Shown piece after piece: positions 2,555-39,155 of a stretch of 64,000 nucleotides of DNA (position 1 is its first letter; each line of letters begins with the position of its first letter). The stretch comes from Monocercomonoides exilis PA203 (Eukaryota; Protista; Preaxostyla). The stretch spans positions 248,001-312,000 of the forward strand of contig LSRY02000057.1 of the NCBI GenBank assembly GCA_001643675.2. The letters are read 5' to 3'. The notes under the pieces are model-generated. The model saw only the letters and a program-made list of their open reading frames with translations. It was not told the DNA's origin and made no database searches. A program made the translations under genes and the position numbers.

Positions 2555-2763
2555 GGCTGATCCTTTTTGAAATCACACATTCTTTCGAGTTTTGATCAAA
2601 ATATTAATCTTAATAGGATTTTGAAAAAATGAACGATATTGGAATAGACATGCATCATATGAAGATATTTGTGAGGAGATATATTTTTTTTTCGAATATC
2701 CTGTTTAAATTAATATTTTGATCAAAACTCGAACGAAAGCATGATTTCAAAAAGGATTCAGCC
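2555..2763. mobile_element. MITE family A (GGCTGATCCTTTTTGAAA termini), 4-bp TSD ATGT
   Basis: Imperfect ~70-bp TIR: ggctgatcctttttgaaatca...tcgagttttgatcaaaatattaat versus attaatattttgatcaaaactcga...tgatttcaaaaaggattcagcc. ATGT flanks both sides (2551-2554, 2764-2767). Confidence 0.8.
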
Positions 2764-7800: not shown

Positions 7801-9332
7801 CATTTCACACAGCTTCTTCTTCATTATCATCATTCACTTCATCTAATTGGATTTCTTCATTATCTGTTTCATCATCAGAGATTAAGAGAGAAATGAAGAA
7901 AAAGAAATTACGCGTCCGAAGGAAAGAATTAGAAAAAAGAATTAAAAGGCGAAAGAGAAAGAGAAAGAGAATGAAGACAGTTTAGAGAGAAAAGAGAGCA
8001 CCATGAATGGAAATAGGATTGAGAGAATTGAAGAGATTTTTTAGAATGAAAGGATGATGATGAATGAATTTTAAATTTGAGTTGGAAGTTGATTTGAGAA
8101 GAGAAGGAAAGAGAAAGTGCACAAAAGAGATTATTTGTATGAGAAAAGAACGATATTTGAAAAGAGAGACAACGAAAAAAAAAGACAAAAATCCATAATG
8201 AATCGAATGAAAACGAAAACGATTAGAGAATGAATTGGTTGATAAAAGAAAACGCGCGCACCCACATTAAAAAAGAATTGAAAAGAGAAGGAAGAGCGAA
8301 GGGTATATCATTGGTTGAATGAAAAGAGAAGTGATGAGGATGAGCTAACCTTTGGCAGTTAGGTTGTCCGCTATTCCACAATCCCATGCTCTTATTTTGA
8401 AAGTTGATAATTCACATTAATGGAATGAGGATTTGGAAAAGCTGTTTGAAACAATAAAAGAGGAAATAAATGATGTATTTGATGAACTGAAAATGCAAAA
8501 GATAGATTCCACTTGTTGATTGATGCATATGTTTGTTGAATCTGCGAAAAAACGAAAGTTAAAAGAGATGGGGGAAAATACGGGCTTTCAAGCTTCTTTT
8601 GCACAAAGTGCAAAAAAATTGCTTCATTCTTAACTTTGTTTCGCTTTCTTAGATTTCAAAACAAATTTGATTTTCAGATCCGTGAACAGGCATTGTTGAA
8701 ATCAAAACAAAATGTTTTGCGACATTTCACGTATGTCAAAAAATGGACAAATTTTTTTTGTGTTTTTTGATCTTAAAAAGTTCATCGAAGGTGCGTAATT
8801 TTACAGTGAAAGTGCCCGAAGTGAAATATTTTGCAACATATCTTCAACAAAGTTGTTTCTTAGCTAAAACGTTTCACATGTTCCAGAACCTTCAAATATC
8901 CAACATACTTTAGTAACAGAATGGAATTTTCCAATGGAAATTTATTTTCTTCATCATTTGGTAAAATTTCTCGCACAGTTCGGCTGAAAAACAGAGTTGA
9001 ATTCTTCCTTTCTCATTACATCTATCATTTAATTCAATTCTTTGTATTTTTGTTTCTGTTCTTCCTTATTGGAATGTTCCATCTCATTTAATAATAGGGT
9101 TATCTTTTTATTGGCACCTTTTTCTTTATTGGAACTTTTTTTTTTAAAAAAAAACATTAATCTGACCCACAAATGATATTTTAAAATATATTTTTTGCAT
9201 ATATGCAAATGTCAAGTATTCTAATATTTGAATTTTGAAAGAAATCTAATTTCTCATGGTGTGGAAATTGGGGGGTTCAAGTCCTTCCATTGAGCTTTCA
9301 TGAGAAATTGGACTGCATAAAGGTTTGTATAT

Positions 9333-9572
9333 GGGTGATTCTTTTTGAAAAGTCACAAATGTTTAATTATCAAATAAATCAAAAATTTCATATTTTGCTC
9401 AAATTTTATTTTTCTTAAACAAAACTTCACTAATTAGAAAGCTATTTTTAGAAAATGTTATTTCAAACATTCTTGAGGAGATTTGTGAGCTGAAACAGAA
9501 ATTTGAGCAAAATATGAAATTTTTGATATATTTGAAAATTAAACATTTGTGACTTTTCAAAAAGAATCACCC
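9333..9572. mobile_element. MITE (GGGTGATTCTTTTTGAAAAGTCAC termini), 4-bp TSD ATAT
   Basis: ~75-bp near-perfect TIR (gggtgattctttttgaaaagtcacaaatgtttaatt / aattaaacatttgtgacttttcaaaaagaatcaccc). ATAT on both flanks. Confidence 0.85.
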
Positions 9573-9676
9573 ATATATTTCTAATTCATTCAAAAATTAA
9601 AATATTAATTCAAAATTCTTAAATGAGAATTAATAAATTTAAAAATATATTAATGATCATTACCCATAATATATAA

Positions 9677-11146
9677 ATGAAATTACTAGTGAAAAAGAAA
9701 GCTGAAGCGGTGCAGAAGAGGCTGAAGGAAGCAATGTCCACATTACGATACAGAAAATATGAGACAAGATTGGAAAGGATTGCACTCATTGTGATTGATA
9801 ATGTTGTCAGGCTGGTCGACGGGGTTAAATACGGTGGAATAAGCAAAAAATCTTTGGAGCGCGCTGTTAAAGCTATAAAAAACGACAGGCCGATTGCAAA
9901 AGTTGGGCACCCACATATTATTAGCTGTGAAAAAGAAAAGCAATTTTTGAAGAAGTTGCAATTGAATCCCGATCTGGGACAAGCCTCTCGTTACGAAAAG
10001 CGCCCGATCTGGTTTGCAATCGATATTTGAATTGTATATTAATTGGTATTTAGATGGAAAAAATAATTGACGATAGTGAAGAAGAAGGAGAAAAAGAAGA
10101 GAAGATAAAAGAGAAAGTCACTCTGAAGACGGTTTACGCCTTCATAAAGCGCCATCCGGAATTGAAGTCCTCGCTGCCAAAGCAAGTTGACATTAACAGA
10201 CTTGCAGCATCTTGCCAGAAAGTCCTAAAGCCGTGGTTCACCAAATAACAAGCATTACACGATGCAAACAAATATCCAGAGGAATTAATCTATAACATCG
10301 ATAATTCTTCGCTTCGAATTCCAATAAAATCTCGTTGTGTTGTAGTTCATCCCGTAGATGAACAAGCTGGATTCAAAAAGACTGCCGAAAGGATGCCGAA
10401 TGCCACTCTCGTTGCAAGAGAAGCTGCTGATGGATTCTCGCTTCCGTCTCACGCGCTGTGGCCGAGCGCAACTCTTCCGAAAGAACTGACAACGCTGTTA
10501 ACATTGTCGCTTGACATTTGGCCAAACACAAACGGCTGGATGGACAAAACATCATTCAAAAAATACACCTTAACAGTTCTGCTGCCAGCTATCGTTGACA
10601 GAAGAAAACATATCTTGAAGGAATCTCATCATTGCCTTCTTCTCCTGGACTCGCACTCATCACGGGCAGATCCAACTGTATGGAGACAGTTCAAAGAAGC
10701 CGAAATAGACGTCGTCACCTTCGTTCCACATACAACACATATATCGCAACCGCTGGACAGAGGAGTATTTGCAGTGTTGAAGCAGCAGCTTTCAAACAAT
10801 TACATCTCTCCATCATCCACCTCCTCATCTCAAAAAAAGAACAGCAGTAGCAGATGTGTCACAGAAAGCCATCCGCTCTGCTTTCACTCCATCAGTCATC
10901 AAAAAAACATTCGTCAAAAAAGGATTCCTCAGCAAATGTTCAAAATATGTGCTTATGAAGCTTCTTCAGTCTTCTCTATACAACATTCCATCTCATTCAC
11001 ATTGTTTCGACTTCTTCGGAAAAGAAATTACAAAAGAAAATGTTCTTGATGAATGGAATAAATATATTGAAAAACACAAGATGAAAATTAAAGAAATTGA
11101 AAAAAAGGAAAAGGAAAATGAAAAAGAAGAATTGTCTTTGGAGTAA
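9677..11146 (+). pseudogene. pogo-type DDE_1 transposase, frameshifted, probable intron ~10011-10053
   Basis: GHP..E HTH region, FIKRHPELK, IYNIDNSS, NGWMDK, LLLLDSHSSR and VPHTTHISQPLDRGVFAVLK (DDE_1 motifs). Several stops and frameshifts. Confidence 0.85.
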
Positions 11147-11302
11147 AAAGTGAAAAGGATATTCAGAAAAAATAAAAAATGATGATGATGAAACAAGTGA
11201 TGAATTTGCCCTTTTTGAACGTGAAAATGGAAAAAGAAAAGTTAGAAGAGTAAATGATTCGAGTTTTGTATTTTTTTGATGAATTTTTGACTGTTTTTTT
11301 TA

Positions 11303-11551
11303 GAGATATGGTATATCAGCTATAGATCCATCTCAATTAGGTCAATCAATATTATCGATTTATGAATATCTGGTAGTAGTTATCATTTTGAATAATAAGT
11401 TGGAATAGGCAATGATATTAAGATAGAGATCGATGATTATTGCTGATACGCTTAGGGGTTTATCATGATTAGATATTCAGTGATGTTCTATAAAGAAGGA
11501 GTCATTGATTGGTGTAATCGATATGTATCTATAGCTGATATACCATATCTC
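11303..11551. repeat. Terminal fold-back module: 25-bp perfect inverted repeat enclosing 199 bp (mirror copy at 16249-16497)
   Basis: gagatatggtatatcagctatagat (11303-11327) versus atctatagctgatataccatatctc (11527-11551). Confidence 0.9.
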
Positions 11552-11823
11552 CAGGGAGGAGAATTAGCTAAAACATTAATTGAAAGTGTTCAAGTTGGTA
11601 AATTAATGGTGAAATTGTGTGAAAATTGGTGTTTTCGTTGATGAAATACATGTGTTGAACATGTGTTGAATGTGTTGATGTTACCGTTGGTGAAATACAT
11701 GAGTTATATGTTGAACGTGTTATGTGTCGAAGGTGTTTGTTGAACGTTGATGAAATCGTTGATGTGATCGTTGATGAAAATCGCAAATAAAAATAATTGA
11801 TTTTGTTTTTTGTTTTATAGTAA

Positions 11824-12036
11824 ATTGGTCGGAAGAAGATTTACGCAACTGTGAAAGAAGCTAAAGCGGCTCAACAGAAACAAATTAAACAGTTTCAGGA
11901 AAAACGTAAGGAAGAAACTAAGTATTACAACGAACATGTATCTGAAAAACAGAAGAAGTTGATAAAGATATTGAGGAGAAAGCTTATCGAAAGTGATGAG
12001 TTGTTAGATGAATTGATGGAAAAAGTTAATGATTAA
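11824..12036 (+). CDS. Small basic coiled-coil protein within the left TIR (start uncertain)
   Basis: Open frame IGRKKIYATVKEAKAAQQKQIKQFQEKRKEETKYYNEH...MEKVND with protein-like composition. No in-frame ATG near the 5' end. Confidence 0.4.
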   Translation: MGRKKIYATVKEAKAAQQKQIKQFQEKRKEETKYYNEHVSEKQKKLIKILRRKLIESDELLDELMEKVND

Positions 12037-12501
12037 GGTGAATGTGTTTATTTTTGGTTGATTTGGCAGTTAATGTGCAAATTGATGAAATATAACTGGT
12101 GAAACACGTTATTAGTATTGTCAATTGTTTCAAACAGTGTCCACGATGGTGTTGTGGTTGATTGCCAACATCTATATTTTTTTTTAAACAAATGGCATTA
12201 TGACGGACTGCCACATTGATGTTTTTCACTTGATTTGGTGTTTATTTTGGTGTATTTAGCTTGAAAAAGTGTCAATCGGTAAACCGGACACCAAATTGTG
12301 GCAACATCGAGACGCTGGGGGAAGGGAAAAATTGGCCAAAATCTCCGTGCTGGAAGCGTAGTCCGGTAGTCCGGTAGTCCGGGTCTTATAATTTCATCTG
12401 AAAATAGCTGCCAACATGAGCATTTTCCCCCTAATTTGGTATGATTTTGAGGGTTTTTATTTAATTCCGATTGTTTCATCATTTTGCCACATTGCCACAT
12501 G

Positions 12502-12576
12502 ATATCGTCAGTTGCACACATTATTTATATCGTTGGTGGTACACATCAGTTATATCGCCAGTGGTACATATCAGTC
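12502..12576. repeat. Three 25-bp degenerate direct repeats (ATATCGyyrGTkGyACAyAT...) at the inner edge of the left TIR
   Basis: atatcgtcagttgcacacattattt / atatcgttggtggtacacatcagtt / atatcgccagtggtacatatcagtc. Confidence 0.75.
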
Positions 12577-12880
12577 TTCACACTGCACAGGCTTAGCTGG
12601 TTAGGTGATGTGAGTGATGCTGCGACGTGGAAATATTGAGTTTAATCTCCGACCTTTTCACCTGAAAAGTGTGCATAAAATGCACAGGATAAATTCCATT
12701 TTCCAAAATATATGGGCAAACGGGCAAACTGAGTAAAGTGGGCAAAATACATTTAATGTGAAAATTAACTGTTTCCCGTCAAAGTTCGACATCAACCTCG
12801 ACGTCATCTTCCCCGTAAATGCACGTTTCAAAAATAAATCTGTTTCAAAAAATCTTTGTTTTTTTTTTAATTTTTATAAA

Positions 12881-15234
12881 ATGACAAACCCCCAAACAGA
12901 CACTGGCAACGTGATCCAACAACTAATTGATTCAATTTCAACAGAACAGCAAACGCTGGGAGAACGAATGAAAGATCACCTTGTTGACTTGTTCGACTAC
13001 AAGAAATACTCTGACAAGAAGCAGGGCCAACGACACACTGGAAAAGCTGTCGATATCAGCAAATGTGAGGATTTTTGTGTCGTTGATGTTGATTTTAACA
13101 AATCCCTTCAAGCTGAACAAACGAAAACCATCAGGAATTCCATTCTCGAGTAACCCCCCCCCCCCCCCCCGAAACGTCGGACTTGTACAAACAGATCATG
13201 GTGGTTTTCACATTTATTGTGAGCTGTGTGGTTATCCCCTTAAATGTTTGTCACAAACCAAAGTGTTCACGAGTCCAGAGTACGATATCGACATTTTTGC
13301 AGGCATTGGAGATCGAAAACAGAGGCTTGAAGTTCAAGCTGACTTTTCATACAGAGAGATGAAAGATGGCAAGAGAATCATCACCAAATACATTCCCCTC
13401 AACAATTACAGACAGCTAACAGATCTTTCATCACTCGAGAGTGTTCTTGACGTTTTCGGTATTGATCTCAAAACAGAGAATACATCAGTGGCAATGACAC
13501 CTGAGCCACACAATCTTCTCACAAAAGATGGTGTCGTCGATATATCTCCGACTGTCACTCTTGCTCTTGTCAATGGAGTCAAAGATGTTGAAATACATAA
13601 CGACACAGGTTCTCTGTCACTTGATTGTGAGTTAACTCTTTCACCGTTATATGCAGCTCTCAACCCTCTCGTCAACATTAACGGTTTCGACAACCAATCA
13701 ATAGATTTTCTTTGCAATCAAATCAGAAAGACAGCTGCTCTAACAGCAAATGCTATCACTCTCTATGAAGAGAAACGAAACAGGTACAGAGATAACAAGT
13801 CACATCTATTTGTTCTACAAAAGATTGTCAAGAGATGGAATCCATCATTTTACAACGATGTGATCATTCCACTCCTCAGAAAAGAGAATGAGCAAAAGGA
13901 AGAACCTCCACGAGAGATAACTGTTCATGAAATTGATCTCAACTCATCGTTCTCGTTCTCTGAAATCAGGGATAAAGCTTGTCGAAAACAATACTCCTCA
14001 CTGTCGAAAGTCGCTGAAGATCTCACAAAAGTTCTGAGGTTTGTTGAAGCAAGGATGGAATTCATTGTGAAAGAGTTTGACATTCACACCTCTTGTTATT
14101 CAATTACAATAAAGACATAATCAGCAATGAACGAACTCTGAAAAAACAATAAAACTACGGCATGATGATAAAAAAACTCTCACAGTTGAGACAACTTTCG
14201 AACAATACACTCATGTTCTATTGATTGATAGGGTGAAGTTCTTCTCAGATAACACTCGGATATTCTCTCTGTTCCATGGGTTCAAATACCAAATGGCAAA
14301 CGAACAAAATGACGAAATCATTAAACCATTCCTCGATTTCACACGAGAAGTTATCGCCAACGACAACGAAGAACTCTATCAATACATCCTTTGTTGGATT
14401 TCGTCAATTGTTCAAAATCCTGGTAAAAAAGCAGAAACATCACTTGTTCTTAAAGGTTTGCAAGGTATTTGAAAGAATGTCTGGATTAATGTTCTTGCTG
14501 AACTGTTGGCAGGACATTCATGTTCAAATGTCACAGAGATTGCAGAACTGTCAGGACAGTTCAACTTCATCGTCGAAGGGAAAATGCTCATTGTTCTTAA
14601 CGAATTGAAGAATGTTGGAGATGATCGAACAGCTAACTTTGACGCATTGAAGAGTATAATCACAGATTCAACAATAAGAATTAACGAGAAGAATCAACCA
14701 TGTAGAACAGCTGAGAACGTTTCCAATTTCAAATTTGTGACAAATCACACATACCCGGTAAAGATTGAGATTGGTGACAGAAGATATGTTGTTTGTGATT
14801 GTAACACAAAATATAAAAACAATCTCACATTCTTCAAGGATTTCACTGACTCTTTCGATAATGAATTCTATGAACAACTTCTCTGTTATTTCATCAGTAA
14901 AAATCTCTCCGAATTCAACACAAGGGCAATTCCAACAATGGAGGCAAAGGAAGATATCATTGCAGCATCACTCTCTGTCATCGATGTATTCTGTCAGGAG
15001 CATTACAACAAACTCAAAGAAGTGTGGGGATGTTCTGAAGCACTATGTTTCAGACCAGTTGAATACAAGAACGATCGCTCATTCCAACTAGCAATTAAAG
15101 ACAGATGTGAGAGAACACGAGTAGGTGGAAGAGGAAATCAAGTGTGGTGTTATAAACTCAAGCCAGAGTATGAACAACTCCTCAAACGACGTGAAGATGA
15201 AGATGACATTGATTGTTCTGCGGAAATTAACTAA
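12881..15234 (+). pseudogene. Prim-Pol (AEP-like) primase fused to an SF3/D5-type (DUF5906-like) helicase, disrupted (~780 codons)
   Basis: N-terminal CVVDVDFN (DxD) and VQTDHGGFHIYC. C-terminal YILCWISSIVQNPGKK..LVLKGLQGI*K (Walker A with a stop), LIVLNE (Walker B), FVTN (motif C) and GDRRY. Stops at 13151, 14118 and 14470; frameshifts at the C17 run (13154-13170) and ~14140. Confidence 0.85.
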
Positions 15235-15300
15235 ACACATTCGTTTATTTGGAATCATAAACACACAAACGATACAACTTGTGTGCCACTGACGATTCCG

Positions 15301-16498
15301 TGTGGCAATGTGGCAAAATGATGAAACAATCGGAATTAAATAAAAACCCTCAAAATCATACCAAATTAGGGGGAAAATGCTCATGTTGGCAGCTATTTTC
15401 AGATGAAATTATAAGACCCGGACTACCGGACTACCGGACTACGCTTCCAGCACGGAGATTTTGGCCAATTTTTCCCTTCCCCCAGCGTCTCGATGTTGCC
15501 ACAATTTGGTGTCCGGTTTACCGATTGACACTTTTTCAAGCTAAATACACCAAAATAAACACCAAATCAAGTGAAAAACATCAATGTGGCAGTCCGTCAT
15601 AATGCCATTTGTTTAAAAAAAAATATAGATGTTGGCAATCAACCACAACACCATCGTGGACACTGTTTGAAACAATTGACAATACTAATAACGTGTTTCA
15701 CCAGTTATATTTCATCAATTTGCACATTAACTGCCAAATCAACCAAAAATAAACACATTCACCTTAATCATTAACTTTTTCCATCAATTCATCTAACAAC
15801 TCATCACTTTCGATAAGCTTTCTCCTCAATATCTTTATCAACTTCTTCTGTTTTTCAGATACATGTTCGTTGTAATACTTAGTTTCTTCCTTACGTTTTT
15901 CCTGAAACTGTTTAATTTGTTTCTGTTGAGCCGCTTTAGCTTCTTTCACAGTTGCGTAAATCTTCTTCCGACCAATTTACTATAAAACAAAAAACAAAAT
16001 CAATTATTTTTATTTGCGATTTTCATCAACGATCACATCAACGATTTCATCAACGTTCAACAAACACCTTCGACACATAACACGTTCAACATATAACTCA
16101 TGTATTTCACCAACGGTAACATCAACACATTCAACACATGTTCAACACATGTATTTCATCAACGAAAACACCAATTTTCACACAATTTCACCATTAATTT
16201 ACCAACTTGAACACTTTCAATTAATGTTTTAGCTAATTCTCCTCCCTGGAGATATGGTATATCAGCTATAGATACATATCGATTACACCAATCAATGACT
16301 CCTTCTTTATAGAACATCACTGAATATCTAATCATGATAAACCCCTAAGCGTATCAGCAATAATCATCGATCTCTATCTTAATATCATTGCCTATTCCAA
16401 CTTATTATTCAAAATGATAACTACTACCAGATATTCATAAATCGATAATATTGATTGACCTAATTGAGATGGATCTATAGCTGATATACCATATCTCT
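15301..16498 (-). repeat. Right terminal inverted repeat (~1,198 bp)
   Basis: Reverse complement of 11302-12499. Confidence 0.95.
15764..15976 (-). CDS. Mirror copy of the small TIR protein
   Basis: Identical translation in the right TIR. Confidence 0.4.
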   Translation of the reverse strand: MGRKKIYATVKEAKAAQQKQIKQFQEKRKEETKYYNEHVSEKQKKLIKILRRKLIESDELLDELMEKVND

Positions 16499-17816
16499 TT
16501 TTTTCATTTCAAAAAATTTTGGTGCCAATAAAGAACAAAGTGCCAAAAAAATGATGACCCTGTAGAAAAATTAATGTAGAAAAAACCGTCACAATCAAGA
16601 AAAAAACATCAACGATTGCGCACCAGTGAATGCTTCGGTTAACAATAGCCCCTGTATTTTTGAAAAAATGTGTCATTCAAAATGCAACGCTGTTAATTAT
16701 AAGTTTTGAATTCGCATATATTTGGATAGAAGAAACAGATAAAAAGATAAACTAAATACGGTCATGGAAATATGTGCATTCATATTGTTGTTTCTTTTGC
16801 TGACATTTTTGACAAGGTATTGCAAAGAAATGAAAAAACGTTTTGTCTTTTTCTGTTTGTTGTTATGGATTCAATGATCGAATATCATTTTAAAATAAGG
16901 AATAAACATTGACAAAATGAGAGATCGGGAATGAACATTTTCTGCAGAATAAGATAAATTGTTTTGCATGGTCACAGCAGACAATGATGGAGATGCTATA
17001 TTTTTGAAATTCTTTCTGAAAAGATTTGGAGATTGGATGGCCTACGAAATGCAACAATTTTATTAATAACATAAAAAATGCAATGTATGCATTTTATATT
17101 GTTCTATTGATTGTGAAGATATTTCCATCTGTATCCTCTCCAAAGTGCAGGAATATGAGTTATTGTTGAAATGGCCAATCTCCGCTTTGGAGAGCAATAC
17201 GATGAGAACGGAGCAAATTATTATATAGACATTGGGAAATAAATGGAGTTACGCAAGATACATGATTTTCAAGATTTTTATTTGGTGCAAGAGATGAAAA
17301 CAAATTCAACTGTCATATTATAAATGAAGATAATAAGAAGGAATTCCATGAAAAAGGAAAAACAGACAAATATTGATGGTATTTTGAAAAATGATGAGGA
17401 AAACAGTTTTTGAATGTATGAGCAAAGAAAGTTACCGACAATACCGAAAATTTGTTATTTTCCTCAAAAAAATGCAAGGAAACAATGTTAATCATAGAAG
17501 TCAGAAATTTACAAATAGACTTGATAGTCCAGATATTTCAACTTTTGGAAAGAATTAGCCTGTTTTTTATGGAATTTTTCACAAGCAAAGCAAACTTGTT
17601 ACTCACAAAACCGTTGAAACGAATGTTATGAAGAGCTACAGCTTCTTTTTGGGAATATGATATTAAGAAAATATGAAAACAAATGAAACCTGCTCCAGTA
17701 ATTTTAGTCTCGTATATTTGCCAAAAGAAAATTCAGAAAACCTGTTGCTTCGTATCAATTGTTTGGGCATTTCAGTCAGCATAAGGCTTTTTTGAATGGC
17801 TTAACTCTTCTGTGCT

Positions 17817-25177: not shown

Positions 25178-27380
25178 TAATCATGGACAAAACCCGGGAA
25201 AGTGGCAAAACCCTGAAATTTCTAACAAAAGACGAAAAAAAGAAAAAGCAAATTATCAAATCATATATAAGTGATAACATGCATATTTCAATTGTTTAGC
25301 AATAATTCAATAATAATATGAATAAAAAACTGAACTTGAATTATAAATTTCTCTTTTATGTAAGGATCGATTAACCATAACGTATGCATTTTCGTTCAAT
25401 ATGTCTTCTTTTCCTTCTTCAACAGCTCATTCCAAAATTTTTGCAACAGCCGAGTATATAAGACTGGATTCAAAAGTTGAAAAAATAAACTTTCTTCTTA
25501 CAAAAAAAGAAATTTCACACAAAAACATAGTTTCTTCAGAGTTGGTTTCTTCTTCGGCTCTGTATCGACATATCTCTTCTTTTAAGCAGGGAGGAGATCC
25601 TTTACACAATGGTAGACCGAATATGCTCAACAAAGAAGAACAAGAGGAAATTGAAGATTGTGCGAAAACACTATTAATTTCGACGAACAAAATAACAATA
25701 AAAGATGTCATCAGAATTGTATGGTTTATTTAACGATATGTTTTTTTACTCTTTTTTATTTATATTTTTAGGCCGAGAATGTTTTGAAGAGAAGAAAACG
25801 AAATGAAGATGACGAATGCGAAATGAAAGAAATTAATGAAAAATGGGCTCGAAGATTTATAAGTTAAAACAACGCTTTGAAAATGGTAAAGCCAAAATAT
25901 ATGGATGTAAACCGGCTCCTAGCATCCTCTTCTGCTAACATTTCTTCATGGTTTTTATTATTGAATGAAACATTAAAAACAAAAAAAATCAGTCAGTGTC
26001 TGATTTTTAATATTGACGAAACTGGAATCAGTTTATGCAAATCAGATAATAACAACATCATAACAAATTCAGATCAAAAACAGCCAGTATTGCATTCACA
26101 ACAGCATGAGCCCAACGCGACATAAACTTTTGGAGTTTATGCGGACGGATCTTCTTTGAATCCTTTGATGTTGTGGCCTTCAAAAACAGTTCCAAAAGAT
26201 CTTCTTCCTTTGAAGTTTCGAAATGAAGAAATTATTGCCAATGGAAGTGGATGGATTACAAAAAGTGACTACGAAGAAATTATGATGCAACACATATTAC
26301 CTGCAATAGACAAAAAAAGAATTGAACTGAATGGATCGGAAGCGTCGGCTCTTTTTATCATGGACGGGCATTCACCGAGGCTTTGCTTGTTTGTTTGTAC
26401 ATGGTGTCACAAACATTCTATTGAAATTGTTATTCTTCCATCTCACACCACTCATTTAACACACCCACTTGATAGATACGAGTTTGCCCTGTTCAAAAAA
26501 AGGTTACATTCTACTTTCGAACCTCCCACCGAAAGTGGAGTATCTGCCTACAGAAAAGCTCTTGTTACAGCTTTGGAAGATGCAGTGTGTACTGCACTGG
26601 ATCCCAGAACTATTAGAAAATCATTCTACACATGCGGAATTGAGCCCTTCGATCTTTCCGTTGTTTTGGATCGATTGCCCAATCAGTTGTCAATCGCAAA
26701 AATTTCTTCGCTAACTTCTTCATACACTTTTTCCGTTATCATGAACAAAAAGGTTATCACAAGTGATGAATTTGTTGAGGAGAACGCCACACGTGAGGAA
26801 GGTTTGAATTATTTAAATCAATTTTATTGGGTTTATTTTTAAGAAAATTGTATTATTTTTACATAAAAATGTGAACTAAACAAATTTAGCGTCATCACAT
26901 CCAAGTTGGCATCAGTGTGTCAACATGATGAGCAACAGAATAAAAGTTGTGATAAAACAATTTCTGGGCAAAACATAGAAGAAGAAATTGAGGAGAATGA
27001 ATTGTTTGCGGCTGAAAAACGAAAAAGAAAGAAGGTTTCGGAATCAGCTTGGGGAAGACAGTTTGACTATAACTAAATAACATAACTTTTTTCGAGGAAC
27101 AAAAACTTTGAATGCCCGATTTTTAAATTTTCGTTATTGTTCCATAAATAACGAAAGCCAAATGCTTCGGTTAATGTTTTTTTTCGCACCAAAGTTAATA
27201 AAATAGAAAAGAATTCAATCAAAAAACAACTTAAATAGAAACTGTTTTTAAATTTTTTGTTTTTTTCCAGATGAACATGACCCACAAATTCAACAAACAA
27301 AAAATCAAATCTGAAGAAATCGAAAACTTCGGGGGTATGCCTCCGGGTTTTGTCCTTTTCCAGGGTTTTGTCCATGATTA
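25178..27380 (+). mobile_element. pogo/Tigger-like DNA transposon 2 (2.2 kb), TA TSD
   Basis: TIR taatcatggacaaaacccgggaaagtggcaaaaccc versus gggttttgtccttttccagggttttgtccatgatta, each with a duplicated g.caaaaccc motif. TA on both flanks. Confidence 0.88.
25401..26842 (+). pseudogene. pogo-type CENP-B-HTH + DDE_1 transposase with intron 25719-25771 and two in-frame TAA stops
   Basis: GRPNMLNKEEQEEI, KWARRFI*, IFNIDETG, ADG, SGWITK, FIMDGH and LPSHTTHLTHPLD. After splicing all pieces are in one frame, with stops at 25865 and 26123. Confidence 0.88.
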
Positions 27381-35376: not shown

Positions 35377-36672
35377 TGGTGAAAATGGTGGTGATCATTA
35401 GCTTTGTCTTTTCTTCACCCTTTTCCCAATGCATTTGAGAAGAAAGATAATGATATCAATATACTTCTCTACACTCTTGTGTTCTTCAAACAAACTGTTC
35501 AGCTGTTCAGATGTTAATGCAATTGTCTCTTTGAAGGAGCATCTGGTCAAAAACTCACTTAATCACCTACAGGAGAAAATCTAAATTTTGATGTATTGCG
35601 TTCAAAGAGCGATGTTTGATTGTTATTGATGAATAAATAAACATTTTTGGAGACTGATGAAGAAAATGAAGTTCAACGGACATCATGAACACAACTAATA
35701 TGAAGAGAACAGAAGAATTGCTTTTGTTTGTTTTTTGTGTGGCAGATGATTGAATTTTTGAGTTGTCAGCTGGCTCCATCATTTGCATTTGGTTTTCAAT
35801 GCAGGTGATTGGATCTTTGCTGTTTTTTTGGAAAATATTTCCTTGAAGAATCTACCATCTGAAGATTTATTTACAAGCTGCCACATTTTTGCTTTTCTTT
35901 CAAACAAAAGAATTCTATTGATGATAAAGATATTTTGTATTTGTTTGACCAATATCGATTTTGAAGTGGAGTATTTTCAGTTGTTTTCTTTGAACTTGTT
36001 TTTCATTTTTGTATTTGTAACTCTGACTTTTTTTTAATTCAGTTGCTTTATTCAGTGACAAATTTTGTTCTTATCTTTTTCTCTTAATTTTTTCCAATTC
36101 TTTCACCATTTGCTTTTGTTCTATTCTGTTCAAAGAATAATCTTCAAAATGGCTTTCACCTTCTTTTGTTTTCGTTCTTTGTATTTTGAAATAGCAAACA
36201 TTTTTCATTATTTATTATTCATCACATGTGTATACATTCATGTTACTCCTTCAATAATTGTAACTCAATTCTTTTATATTTCACACTCATTTCATTTTTG
36301 CATTCATTCATTTTGCTTTTAGAAAAAGAATTATCATTTTTTCGCATTTCACAACAAATGATGAAACATATCGTTTAATTTATGAAACAAGAATATTTCC
36401 TCAGCAAACGAACAGATTCTGATAATCTTCAAAAGATCCGAGAAACAAATGATTATCATTTTATCCTCAGACATCTGTAAAGTGACAATCAAAAAAGAAA
36501 GTTAGAAAGAAAAGGAAAAGGAAAAGGAGAATGAAAAGGTAAAAGTGAATAAGGGAAAAAAGAAAACAGTTTTTAAAAAATATTTGTGTTATTCTTTTTG
36601 ATAAGTCGCGAATGTTTTATTTCTGGGTTAGAAAAAAATGAACCTTATTTGATCACATTTGGTTATATATAT

Positions 36673-36855: not shown

Positions 36856-37058
36856 GGCTGATCCTTTTAGAAATCATTTCATTAAAGTTTCGATCAAAAT
36901 TTTGTTCTCAATGAGATTTTGGAAAAAATGAGTCGAAATAGTGAATATTTATTGTTAATGATATTGCCATTGCAAAAACAAATATTGACTCAAATTCCAT
37001 TGAGATTAAAATAATGATCAAAACTCGAACGAAAGTTTGATATCAAAAAGGATCAGCC
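36856..37058. mobile_element. MITE family A copy 2
   Basis: ggctgatccttttagaaatca ... gatcaaaactcgaacgaaag...tcaaaaaggatcagcc, sharing termini and subterminal sequence with 2555-2763. Confidence 0.75.
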
Positions 37059-39155
37059 AATTTTTTTTTTTTGTTTAATCATTTTGAAAATGAGAATGGA
37101 AAAAACCATTTAACAAAGAATAAATGCATTGTGGGAAAATTTTATGGATTAATAGAAATATGATCGAATATGGTTCAATTTCACAAAATCCAGATTTTTA
37201 ACATCGTGACTTCTCAAAAAGAATAACCCATATTCCAATCATTTTTAGCGAAAAATGTGACTATGAACTTTGAGAAATAGAATAGGAAAGAGCTAAAAAA
37301 AGATAACAAAAGCTCTATCATAAATGTTGAATAAGGTTGATTTACAAGAAAAAATCGTCATTTATGAAAAAAGAAAGATGAATTTCAAAAAACAGAAATA
37401 ATCAAAACACAAAGACAAGCTGTCCTATTATCGACTTGAACATAAAAATAGGACAGAAGATGTGAAGAAAGAAAAGTGAGAGAAAGCATATCTGCTGGGA
37501 TAATACTTGTCTTCAAGAAGAATTAAAAACCTTGAAAAACCTAATTAACGGATGAAAAAATTCACTTAAATGGGAAATATTAATTTAAAAACAGAAATTT
37601 TTTTAGTGGTCAAAATGCAATTTTTATCCTTAATCTGTGATTAAACCACTCAGATAAATAAGATAGATATTATCCAAAAGACTTTTATTTTGAAAAAAAG
37701 ATTTATCCCTTGTCGATGTGTTTTTTTGGGTTATGTTTAACTAAAACTTTTTATTTATTCAACTAATTAGGGTTTCGAAATTAAAAAGTGTAAGTTTGCT
37801 AAATAAATAATACTGTTGGATTAAAAGATAGGTTTATTCAGTTTTGAATCACCGTAATTCGAAAACTTCTTTCGAAATATCACAATTGCATTCATTAATA
37901 ATAATGTTTATAAATAAAAACATGGAAATCCTATTTTCGAACCGGTATTTACATTCCCACTCACCAAAAGAAATCATTATCACGAAATTATTCGTCTGAG
38001 AAATCGCAAAAAATCAAAATAATGAAAACATCCCATATTAGATTTGAGAAAAATTAAATTAGGTTAATGTTCAAGAAACGATCAGTCACAATATTGTCAT
38101 ACGTTACAACTTTGATGATACCATATTGTGCACATAAGTTTTTTTCTGCCGATTGTGTGCGGAAACTGTGAAATATGTTATTTTCAATTTTCAAGAAAAT
38201 TCAAAATCCTGTTCAATTTTAAATGAAATCATTGAGTTTTAAGGGTTTTTATATGTTCACTTTTTTTAATCACAGTTTTCATGTTAGCGTTTTATACAAA
38301 ATCAACTTGGAAGGGTTTAATTCTGTTGGATAAATTGCTCAATTTTATTAAATATAAAAATTATTAAACATTGATCAAAAAAATGCTCTATTTAAATTGG
38401 AGTCTTGTTAAATTGAATATGTTCAAAGCATGTTTGAGTGCATGCTAGTGAAATTTCAATTATTAATCTGTTTATTTTGATTATTGTTGAATATTATTGA
38501 TGTCAAAATTTTTGTGCGGAATAACATATTTGGAGCGGAATAATAAGTTGATTCATTCAAGAATAAAAGTTATTACACGAAAGAAAGACAGAATAACTTC
38601 TTGAAACTATTGACAATTAAGTTATAATCATCCTGACAAATTATTATTCACTGTCGTATATTGTGCAATTACCTCGAATTTGTTCATTAATTATTTACCC
38701 ATGTGAACTGTTACACTTTCGTTTCAATATCAATGCAACTTGAAGACGATCTCATTTTCTGAACTGAGAATTATTACCCCAAAATATTAAAGAAATATCT
38801 CCAGTTTCAATGAAATTTACATTTTATTTCCTCGTGATTGATAAAGTTGAATGCTCATTTTATAATTTTTTGTTTTATGCTTGTCTGAGAAGTGATGCTA
38901 AAAAGAGAGGAAATCTCCAAAAACAAAAACAATAATGATCGTACAACGACATGAATGCAGATAAATGAAATGTGTAATACTATCAAATAACTCTAACATA
39001 AAATATACAACAAACGCTTGAACTACCTCTATTCTAAATTCAAAAGAAAAAGTGCATAAAACAGTATTATAGATAGCTTTTGATAAAATAAAGAAATGTA
39101 ATATGAATAAAACAAAAGCACATTTTTAGTCTTTACAGAATATTCGAATTTCACA

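What the first reader, a model, noticed from the sequence alone, without database searches (positions are those of the whole stretch)
11302..16498. Minimal long-TIR replicon carrying only a primase-polymerase/SF3 helicase: candidate Polinton-satellite or transpoviron-like element
Seen: 5,197 bp, ~1.2-kb TIRs (46% of its length), AG...CT termini, T6 on both flanks, and one large Prim-Pol+SF3 helicase gene. There is no integrase, transposase, pPolB, packaging ATPase, protease or capsid gene. Known: Polintons/Mavericks have long TIRs, AG..CT ends and 6-bp TSDs made by an rve integrase; transpovirons are ~7-kb linear TIR elements with a helicase that depend on giant viruses. Inference: this is a linear satellite that supplies its own priming and unwinding but borrows integration (and perhaps packaging) from a helper Polinton or virophage. 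I do not recognise this architecture as a named family.
Basis: partly seen in the sequence, partly recalled or inferred. Interest (0 to 1): 0.9.

Follow-up and report, generated by a model that had tools for sequence, protein, structure and literature searches.

The report
Mini-Polinton family with fold-back ends
A 5.2-kb piece of DNA with long mirror-image ends that fold back on themselves and a single, now broken, DNA-copying gene sits inside an old transposon of a gut protist; it belongs to a many-copy family that likely shrank from a virus-like Polinton and likely borrows that virus's integrase to move.

Summary
The structure is real: 5,197 bp, arms identical over 1,198 bp, AG...CT ends, T8 and T6 flanks, inserted in a pogo-like transposon of Monocercomonoides exilis. 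It is not a one-off. Five other loci carry the gene, and 11 short-read contigs end exactly at the terminus with unrelated flanks. The protein is an AEP primase-polymerase fused to an SF3 helicase and belongs to the metamonad Polinton clade; one relative sits beside packaging-ATPase-like, PolB-like and Maverick DUF4108 genes.

The gene here is dead (three stops, two frameshifts), and the copies decay neutrally. Each arm also carries a small gene with homologues elsewhere. Each arm begins with a 249-nt fold-back that could self-prime copying.

About 60-65 arm differences are expected from the decay and none is seen, so the arms were recently made identical. Best reading: an integrase-less, capsid-less Polinton derivative, hairpin-primed and moved in trans. 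The target-site duplication, a uniform 5.2-kb size class and the helper are not shown. It is not a transpoviron. Hairpin ends and AEP-only elements are each proposed in 2026 preprints. New variant of a known kind.

The parts
11302..16498 (.). Whole element, 5,197 bp, AG...CT ends
   Evidence: 11 contigs with unrelated flanks end exactly at 11302
11302..12499 (+). Left arm, exact match to the right arm over 1,198 nt; imperfect continuation to about 12538
15301..16498 (-). Right arm; imperfect continuation inward to about 15264
11303..11551 (+). Left terminal fold-back unit: 48-nt inverted repeat (11303-11350 with 11504-11551), first 25 pairs perfect, 153 nt between
16249..16497 (+). Right terminal fold-back unit; the top-strand 3' end pairs back on 16249 onward with one unpaired terminal base, placed to prime copying toward the interior (priming is inferred)
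   Evidence: -38 kcal/mol, z -8.2, 0 of 200 shuffles fold as well
11824..12036 (+). Small basic helical ORF in the left arm (70 codons; ATT where the annotated paralogue MONOS_17995 has Met); function unknown, candidate end-binding protein
15764..15976 (-). Mirror copy of the small ORF in the right arm
12358..12381 (+). Three tandem copies of an 8-mer near the inner end of the arm (mirrored in the right arm); possible origin or binding site, untested
   Evidence: seen in the sequence
12881..15234 (+). Broken AEP primase-polymerase/SF3 helicase gene; lesions at 13151-13153, 13154-13170, 14118-14120, about 14140 and 14470-14472
11294..11301 (+). T8 left flank (candidate target-site duplication, ambiguous in a homopolymer)
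16499..16504 (+). T6 right flank
9096..16561 (+). Host of the insertion: old pogo-like DDE_1 transposon, 40-nt terminal repeats at 9096-9135 and 16522-16561 (85% alike), transposase remnant 10249-11049
   Evidence: (DDE_1 E 3e-14); a contig joins 11281 to 16496 without the element

Best explanation
The element is one dead copy of a many-copy family of long-armed elements in Monocercomonoides exilis that likely arose by shrinkage of a metamonad Polinton-like virus, is predicted to be copied as a linear molecule primed from its fold-back ends, and would be integrated by a helper's rve integrase acting in trans. Shown: the anatomy, the precise recurrent terminus, several dispersed loci, Polinton-clade descent of the gene, neutral decay of the copies, and identical arms despite that decay. 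Inferred: (1) the fold-back 3' end replaces the protein priming that a PolB would give; (2) the AEP-SF3 protein primes and unwinds, from the element itself in the ancestor and from an intact copy or the helper for dead copies such as this one; (3) pairing of the two arms during copying makes them identical; (4) a resident capsid-bearing Polinton-like virus supplies the integrase that makes the AG...CT junctions.
For: Recurrent terminus: of 278 contigs laid on 11170-11640, 11 run on into unrelated sequence exactly before 11302 (agreement 0.48) and 3 before 11300. Dispersal: five other gene models on five other contigs; 8,287, 1,901, 1,223 and 1,185 contigs laid on 10000-17400 at 85% likeness or more, with depth in all 30 bins. 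The one full-length copy reads through into sequence like the window's stretch between gene end and right arm. Descent: 65 relatives at 47-56% including a 198-member T. vaginalis cluster; contig L056 has the fused gene next to DUF4108, an A32-like ATPase and an ORF with PolB-like motifs; helicase-only relatives lie by rve, A32 or DUF4108 genes; the M. exilis copies form one clade (99) inside a 98-supported metamonad clade (quick tree). Trans mobilisation: private changes hit conserved and variable columns alike (34/831 vs 87/2237, p 0.83), and about 60-65 arm differences are expected but 0 seen; letters in which the window differs from most other copies are mirrored in both arms. Helper candidates: 6 capsid genes listed for this species (PMC10120064 Tables S1, S4). 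Terminal palindromes go with non-PolB replicases and rve integrases in another protist (10.64898/2026.07.28.741278).
Against: No helper with this terminus was seen: the integrase search named no M. exilis protein among the best 120 of 306 hits. The target duplication is unproven; the one empty-site contig is too diverged to measure it. No second complete copy could be read, so a common size is not shown; some contigs carry the gene with unlike upstream (341 nt) or downstream (164 nt) sequence. Common variants at the fold-back are mixed, some restoring pairs (11335, 11522, 11503) and some breaking them (11510, 11525, 11530), and no flip-flop joint was listed. Only 1 of the 5 other gene models is full length, and it too carries private changes at conserved columns (4 of 165). 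Identical arms could also come from gene conversion in place.
Confidence: 0.55

Rival explanations
1. Deletion debris: a full-length Polinton-like virus with these arms invaded the genome, and this copy is one of many independent internal deletions; its arms were made identical later by arm-to-arm gene conversion in place, with no further movement.
For: The gene is a Polinton gene. Copies decay neutrally. Some copies have different sequence next to the gene. The termini counted could belong to larger elements.
Against: The full-length paralogue has the same gene-to-right-arm junction. The host transposon's own 40-nt repeats differ at 6 sites while these arms differ at 0 of 1,198. A Polinton with PolB would have less use for fold-back ends (inference).
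Confidence: 0.2
2. An autonomous AEP-SF3 replicon that needs no integrase: it copies itself into DNA breaks in AT-rich sequence using its own primase-polymerase, as proposed for mobile AEP-SF3 genes.
For: No integrase in the element; flanks are AT-rich and unrelated; mobile AEP-SF3 genes without integration genes are proposed in 10.64898/2026.10.13.758929; the stem leading to the M. exilis copies was under purifying selection (26/165 conserved vs 280/432 variable columns changed).
Against: Ends are precise to the base at 11 junctions, which fits integrase action better than break repair (inference). A copy with a dead gene shows freshly identical arms.
Confidence: 0.12
3. A composite transposon: the 250-nt terminal unit is a MITE of some cut-and-paste transposase, and two inverted copies captured a stranded viral gene.
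For: The unit has its own inverted repeat and MITE size; summed depth over it is higher than over the core (not a copy number).
Against: The arms run on for about 950 nt beyond the unit and hold a gene; most depth continues past 11553 and no loose end at 11551-11553 is among the 6 rows shown (33 not shown); the unit's inner end reads CC, not CT.
Confidence: 0.08
4. The inverted duplication is an assembly or polishing artefact.
For: The arms are perfectly identical around a decayed core; no listed contig spans the whole stretch.
Against: The two flanks are consecutive parts of one bounded transposon and a paralogous contig joins them; other contigs stop at the same base; the window's own letter at 11387 has depth about 210 in run X2, about twice the 99-110 of window-identical single pieces (weak).
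Confidence: 0.04

Closest known systems
Metamonad Polintons/Mavericks (TvMav1-3 of Trichomonas vaginalis; 'Metamonada group' of PMC10120064)
   Same: Long terminal inverted repeats; the primase-helicase is 50% identical to a T. vaginalis protein over the helicase part and falls in the same clade; a relative lies among Polinton-type genes (L056).
   Different: 5.2 kb against 10-28 kb; arms 1.2 kb against 100-900 bp; no PolB, integrase, ATPase or capsid gene; fold-back ends. In TvMav a 'Poxvirus D5 protein' is sporadic (0.3, 1.1, 8.6% of classes 1-3) and a 'DNA primase domain protein' is common in class 3 (91.8%); I could not tell which label the 198-member cluster carries.
Palindrome-ended endogenous virophages and PLVs of Halocafeteria seosinensis (bioRxiv 10.64898/2026.07.28.741278)
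   Same: Palindromes inside the terminal repeats next to the target site, paired with non-PolB replication genes; hairpin priming proposed.
   Different: Those are complete viruses with capsid module and integrase, and the palindrome drawn is 52 nt; here it is a 249-nt stem-loop and both modules are missing.
Stand-alone or mobile AEP-SF3 replicase modules (bioRxiv 10.64898/2026.10.13.758929: one AEP-only element in contig EVE_QPMI01_83; 11 extra AEP-SF3 genes in Bodo saltans virus)
   Same: An AEP(-SF3) gene with no integrase or capsid gene, proposed to be mobile.
   Different: There a single element in a tandem array, or genes without flanking repeats; here a dispersed family with 1.2-kb arms, a precise terminus and an arm-borne small gene.
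Transpovirons of Mimiviridae
   Same: Linear layout with terminal inverted repeats, a helicase gene, no capsid module.
   Different: Their helicase is SF1 fused to an inactivated PolB; this one is AEP-SF3. No giant-virus link was tested.
pRN1 ORF904, NrS-1 polymerase, ASFV PrimPol, SaPI PriRep (solved primase-polymerase/SF3 helicases)
   Same: Best structural matches of the predicted models.
   Different: 11-22% identity; activity of this family is untested.

Membership tests
Polinton/Maverick | Protein-primed PolB gene | tested here: not met
   No room or ORF for it; PolB-like query from L056 has no hit in the window; definition in PMC5499653 abstract
Polinton/Maverick | rve integrase gene | tested here: not met
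Polinton/Maverick | Packaging ATPase, protease, capsid genes | tested here: not met
   (A32-like query); the element has no other large ORF
Polinton/Maverick | Long terminal inverted repeats | tested here: met
   1,198 nt exact
Polinton/Maverick | AG...CT termini (rule recalled, not from a call) | tested here: met
   boundary confirmed by 11 junction contigs
Polinton/Maverick | 6-bp target-site duplication (PMC3014272) | tested here: inconclusive
   T8/T6 homopolymer; empty-site paralogue too diverged
Non-autonomous Polinton derivative | Gene of Polinton descent | tested here: met
Non-autonomous Polinton derivative | Multiple independent insertions with the same terminus | tested here: met
Non-autonomous Polinton derivative | Autonomous partner with the same termini in the genome | not testable with these tools
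   no genome held; 6 capsid genes listed for the species; integrase search inconclusive
Non-autonomous Polinton derivative | Recurrent size class with shared arm-core junctions | tested here: inconclusive
   right junction shared with the full-length copy; other contigs differ beside the gene
Transpoviron | SF1 helicase fused to inactivated PolB | tested here: not met
   AEP plus SF3 instead (definition)
Transpoviron | Free linear episome propagated with a giant virus | not testable with these tools
   only assembled contigs were available
Palindrome-ended virophage/PLV | Terminal palindrome inside the arm plus non-PolB replicase | tested here: met
Palindrome-ended virophage/PLV | Capsid module and integrase | tested here: not met
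MITE-bounded composite transposon | Terminal 250-nt unit occurs alone with its own target duplications | tested here: inconclusive
   no loose end at its inner edge among 6 rows shown, 33 not shown

The most novel reading that the evidence does not exclude
A distinct class of nuclear satellite replicon: a fixed 5-kb linear element with hairpin-primed ends, its own AEP-SF3 replicase and a small arm-borne end-binding protein, which parasitises the integrase (and perhaps the capsid) of a few resident Polinton-like viruses, outnumbers them, and still mobilises its own dead copies.
Probability: 0.3. Interest if true: 0.8.

Novelty: new variant of a known kind. Interest (0 to 1): 0.55.

Why it matters
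How Polinton-like elements without PolB copy their ends is open; hairpin priming and independent mobility of AEP-SF3 modules are so far proposals in two 2026 preprints. This family joins both features in a minimal element with many copies in a sequenced protist, so both proposals become testable: by cataloguing copies, by looking for hairpin-ended linear DNA, and by assaying the full-length protein on the terminal fold-back. It would also be a case of a non-autonomous Polinton family, which one study noted as apparently absent in its genome (PMC3014272), and it names part of the 35% unclassified repeats reported for this species (PMC8767320).

Tried and rejected
No genome is held, so copies, duplications and helpers could not be catalogued. 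Short-contig argument: most fused relatives lie on 2.3-4 kb contigs, which looked like stand-alone elements, but Polinton-type integrases lie on equally short contigs and L056 shows the fused gene in a Polinton context; rejected. Integrase search: no M. exilis name in the best 120 of 306; inconclusive. Viral-contig scans gave only distant helicases (13 and 4 loci at 23-31%). The plasmid collection gave 12 records under 60% identity, none covering 80%. The terminal 18-mer matched once in viral contigs, mid-contig, with nothing else alike; chance. Rfam: 0 matches in 11000-17000. The arm DNA and the small ORF hit none of the fetched loci (best E 0.06), and the small ORF has no Pfam family above cut-off. 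The PolB-like ORF of L056 had no Pfam, PHROG or PDB sequence hit; the label rests on motifs read by eye and recalled. No RNA holder listed. Summed contig depths were not used as copy numbers. The careful tree did not finish; the quick tree is cited. The Atlas gave no answer and the wide structural search was busy. Earlier findings: nothing by place or sequence. Parvovirus-type flip-flop of the terminal loop: no such joint listed, weakly against terminal nicking.
Full report
Observation. The stretch 11302-16498 is bounded by arms that are exact reverse complements over 1,198 nt and 99.3% alike over about 1,237 nt. It begins AG and ends CT, with T8 on the left and T6 on the right. It lies 23 bp inside the right end of an old pogo-like transposon: a DDE_1 remnant at 10249-11049 (E 3e-14) and 40-nt terminal repeats at 9096-9135 and 16522-16561, 85% alike. 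One short-read contig of a paralogous transposon copy joins 11281 to 16496 without the element. It is therefore an insertion, not a fold-back artefact. The homopolymer flanks fit a 6-bp duplication but also a shorter one or none, and the paralogue is too diverged to decide.

Host and family. The window's gene model is in the protein collection under the name Monocercomonoides exilis (P0001, 100% identical in three pieces). Its neighbour cluster has 6 members from five other loci on five other contigs; one locus is full length (804 aa) and four are truncated models. Only proteins of 644 aa or more were searched, so more may exist. Four runs of one sample laid 8,287, 1,901, 1,223 and 1,185 contigs on 10000-17400, mostly 85-99% alike, with depth in all 30 bins. 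Of 278 contigs laid on the left end, 11 run on into unrelated sequence exactly before 11302 (median 255 nt, agreement 0.48) and 3 before 11300; one of these may be this copy's own right end. The terminus is thus precise and recurrent. Whether the copies share one size is open. The full-length copy reads through into sequence like that between gene end and right arm, but other contigs carry the gene with 341 unlike letters upstream or 164 downstream.

The large gene. The C-terminal part is an SF3 helicase. The model of the full-length paralogue (pLDDT 83) matches NrS-1, ASFV PrimPol and SaPI PriRep. The model of the N-terminal half (pLDDT 86) matches the pRN1 and NrS-1 primase-polymerases, the only 6 hits at E<=0.001. 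The full-length copy keeps DxD, GGLH, Walker A, Walker B and arginine-finger motifs (motif names recalled). In the window the gene has three stops and two frameshifts, one stop lying in Walker A. The extra base near 14140 is absent from most other copies' depth in runs X2 and X3.

Descent. The closest relatives outside the species are 65 proteins at 47-56%, nearly all from unnamed metagenome or run assemblies, plus a 198-member T. vaginalis cluster; a Streblomastix protein follows. L056, a 9.4-kb contig filed under a sheep-colon bacterial bin and probably misbinned, carries the fused gene (57% to the T. vaginalis protein). Beside it lie DUF4108 (E 6e-6), an A32-like ATPase (E 0.002) and an 837-aa ORF whose PolB label rests on motifs by eye only. 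Helicase-only relatives lie beside rve (weak, E 2e-4), A32 or DUF4108 genes. In a quick tree of 54 helicase rows the four M. exilis copies form one clade (99) inside a 98-supported group with T. vaginalis, Streblomastix, L056 and four helicase-only rows. The gene is of metamonad Polinton origin.

Decay and identical arms. Across six M. exilis copies, private amino-acid changes fall in conserved and variable columns at the same rate (34/831 and 87/2237, p 0.83). In the 12 closest outgroup pairs, conserved columns changed at 0-0.015 and variable ones at up to 0.144. The stem to the family was under selection (26/165 against 280/432). So a working gene spread in a burst and the copies then decayed. 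The window copy's 37 changes in 596 columns imply about 2.7% decay, which predicts 60-65 differences between the arms; there are none. Letters in which the window differs from most other copies occur at mirrored places in both arms (11387/16413, 11580/16220, 11841/15959, 12012/15788), and the small ORF's missing start codon is mirrored too. The arms were made identical after the decay, either by copying of a dead element in trans or by conversion in place.

Each arm opens with a 249-nt fold-back (25 perfect pairs, 48 nt at 88%; z -8.2, 0 of 200 shuffles). The 3' end pairs back so that extension would run inward, which would replace protein priming. Variation at the stem among copies is mixed and no flip-flop joint was listed, so function is not shown. 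Each arm also has a 70-codon ORF, 90% identical to MONOS_17995. A search of 1.84 billion representatives gave 9 hits: itself, six short unnamed homologues that align with 30-36% identity, and two long, probably repetitive proteins that I dropped. It has no Pfam family above cut-off.

Mechanism. Best reading (0.55): a capsid-less, integrase-less Polinton derivative, copied as a hairpin-primed linear molecule by the AEP-SF3 protein, with arms corrected against each other, and integrated in trans. Six capsid genes in one cluster are listed for this species (PMC10120064 Tables S1 and S4), so candidate helpers exist. Their ends were not seen, and my integrase search was inconclusive. Rivals: deletion debris with conversion in place (0.2), integrase-free self-insertion (0.12), MITE-bounded composite (0.08), artefact (0.04).

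Comparison with print. It works like a non-autonomous Polinton but fails Polinton membership (no PolB, no integrase) and transpoviron membership (SF3-AEP, not SF1-PolB). Terminal palindromes paired with non-PolB replicases and a hairpin-priming model are in 10.64898/2026.07.28.741278 (passages and section 7 read). An AEP-only element and mobile AEP-SF3 genes are in 10.64898/2026.10.13.758929 (passages and section 13 read). The supplements of both preprints were not seen and may hold closer cases. Other papers: PMC12289875 passages, supplement search and first part of supplement 1; PMC10120064 passages and supplement searches, its table file being cut and its gene maps held only as labels; PMC5499653 abstract and section 7; passages only of PMC8767320, PMC11296320, PMC6431247, PMC2836005, PMC3014272 and PMC4405056. 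Ten library searches (listings only, apart from the papers named) showed no description of this family; subscription journals and Repbase were not searched.

Verdict. Real, recurrent and of Polinton descent; this copy is dead; helper, duplication length and size class are untested. New variant of a known kind, interest 0.55. If it proves a fixed-size satellite class that still mobilises its dead copies (probability 0.3), interest 0.8.

Noticed in passing
window 9328-9577: A 250-bp MITE-like element with 79-nt arms (97% complementary) and TATA ends, also nested in the pogo-like transposon; no match to the element studied; ends resemble sequence near 36581 and 37197.
   Followed up: partly
window 2560-2757 and 36992-37078: Another hairpin/MITE-like family with two copies in the window.
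   Followed up: no
window 26126-26842: A second DDE-type transposase remnant, read by eye from the ORF list.
   Followed up: no
window 16916-17400: A separate very high-depth repeat with sharp loose-end boundaries at 17082, 17146 and 17312.
   Followed up: no
window 12881-15234: The public gene model P0001 ('putative Poxvirus D5 protein', 669 aa) skips each lesion with what look like spurious introns, so the database shows a pseudogene as a protein.
   Followed up: yes
L056 1-9384: A Polinton-like contig with eukaryotic relatives is filed inside a bacterial genome bin; it carries both a PolB-like ORF and the AEP-SF3 gene.
   Followed up: partly
L018, L021, L022 (gut metagenome contigs, 8.6-9.6 kb): Polinton-like contigs with an rve-like integrase, a helicase lacking the AEP half, and two unassigned 540-570-aa ORFs; the integrase family has 306 hits, the best 120 almost all unnamed.
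   Followed up: partly
window 11584-11585: Some copies have a 33-nt insertion with its own short inverted repeat just inside the fold-back unit.
   Followed up: no
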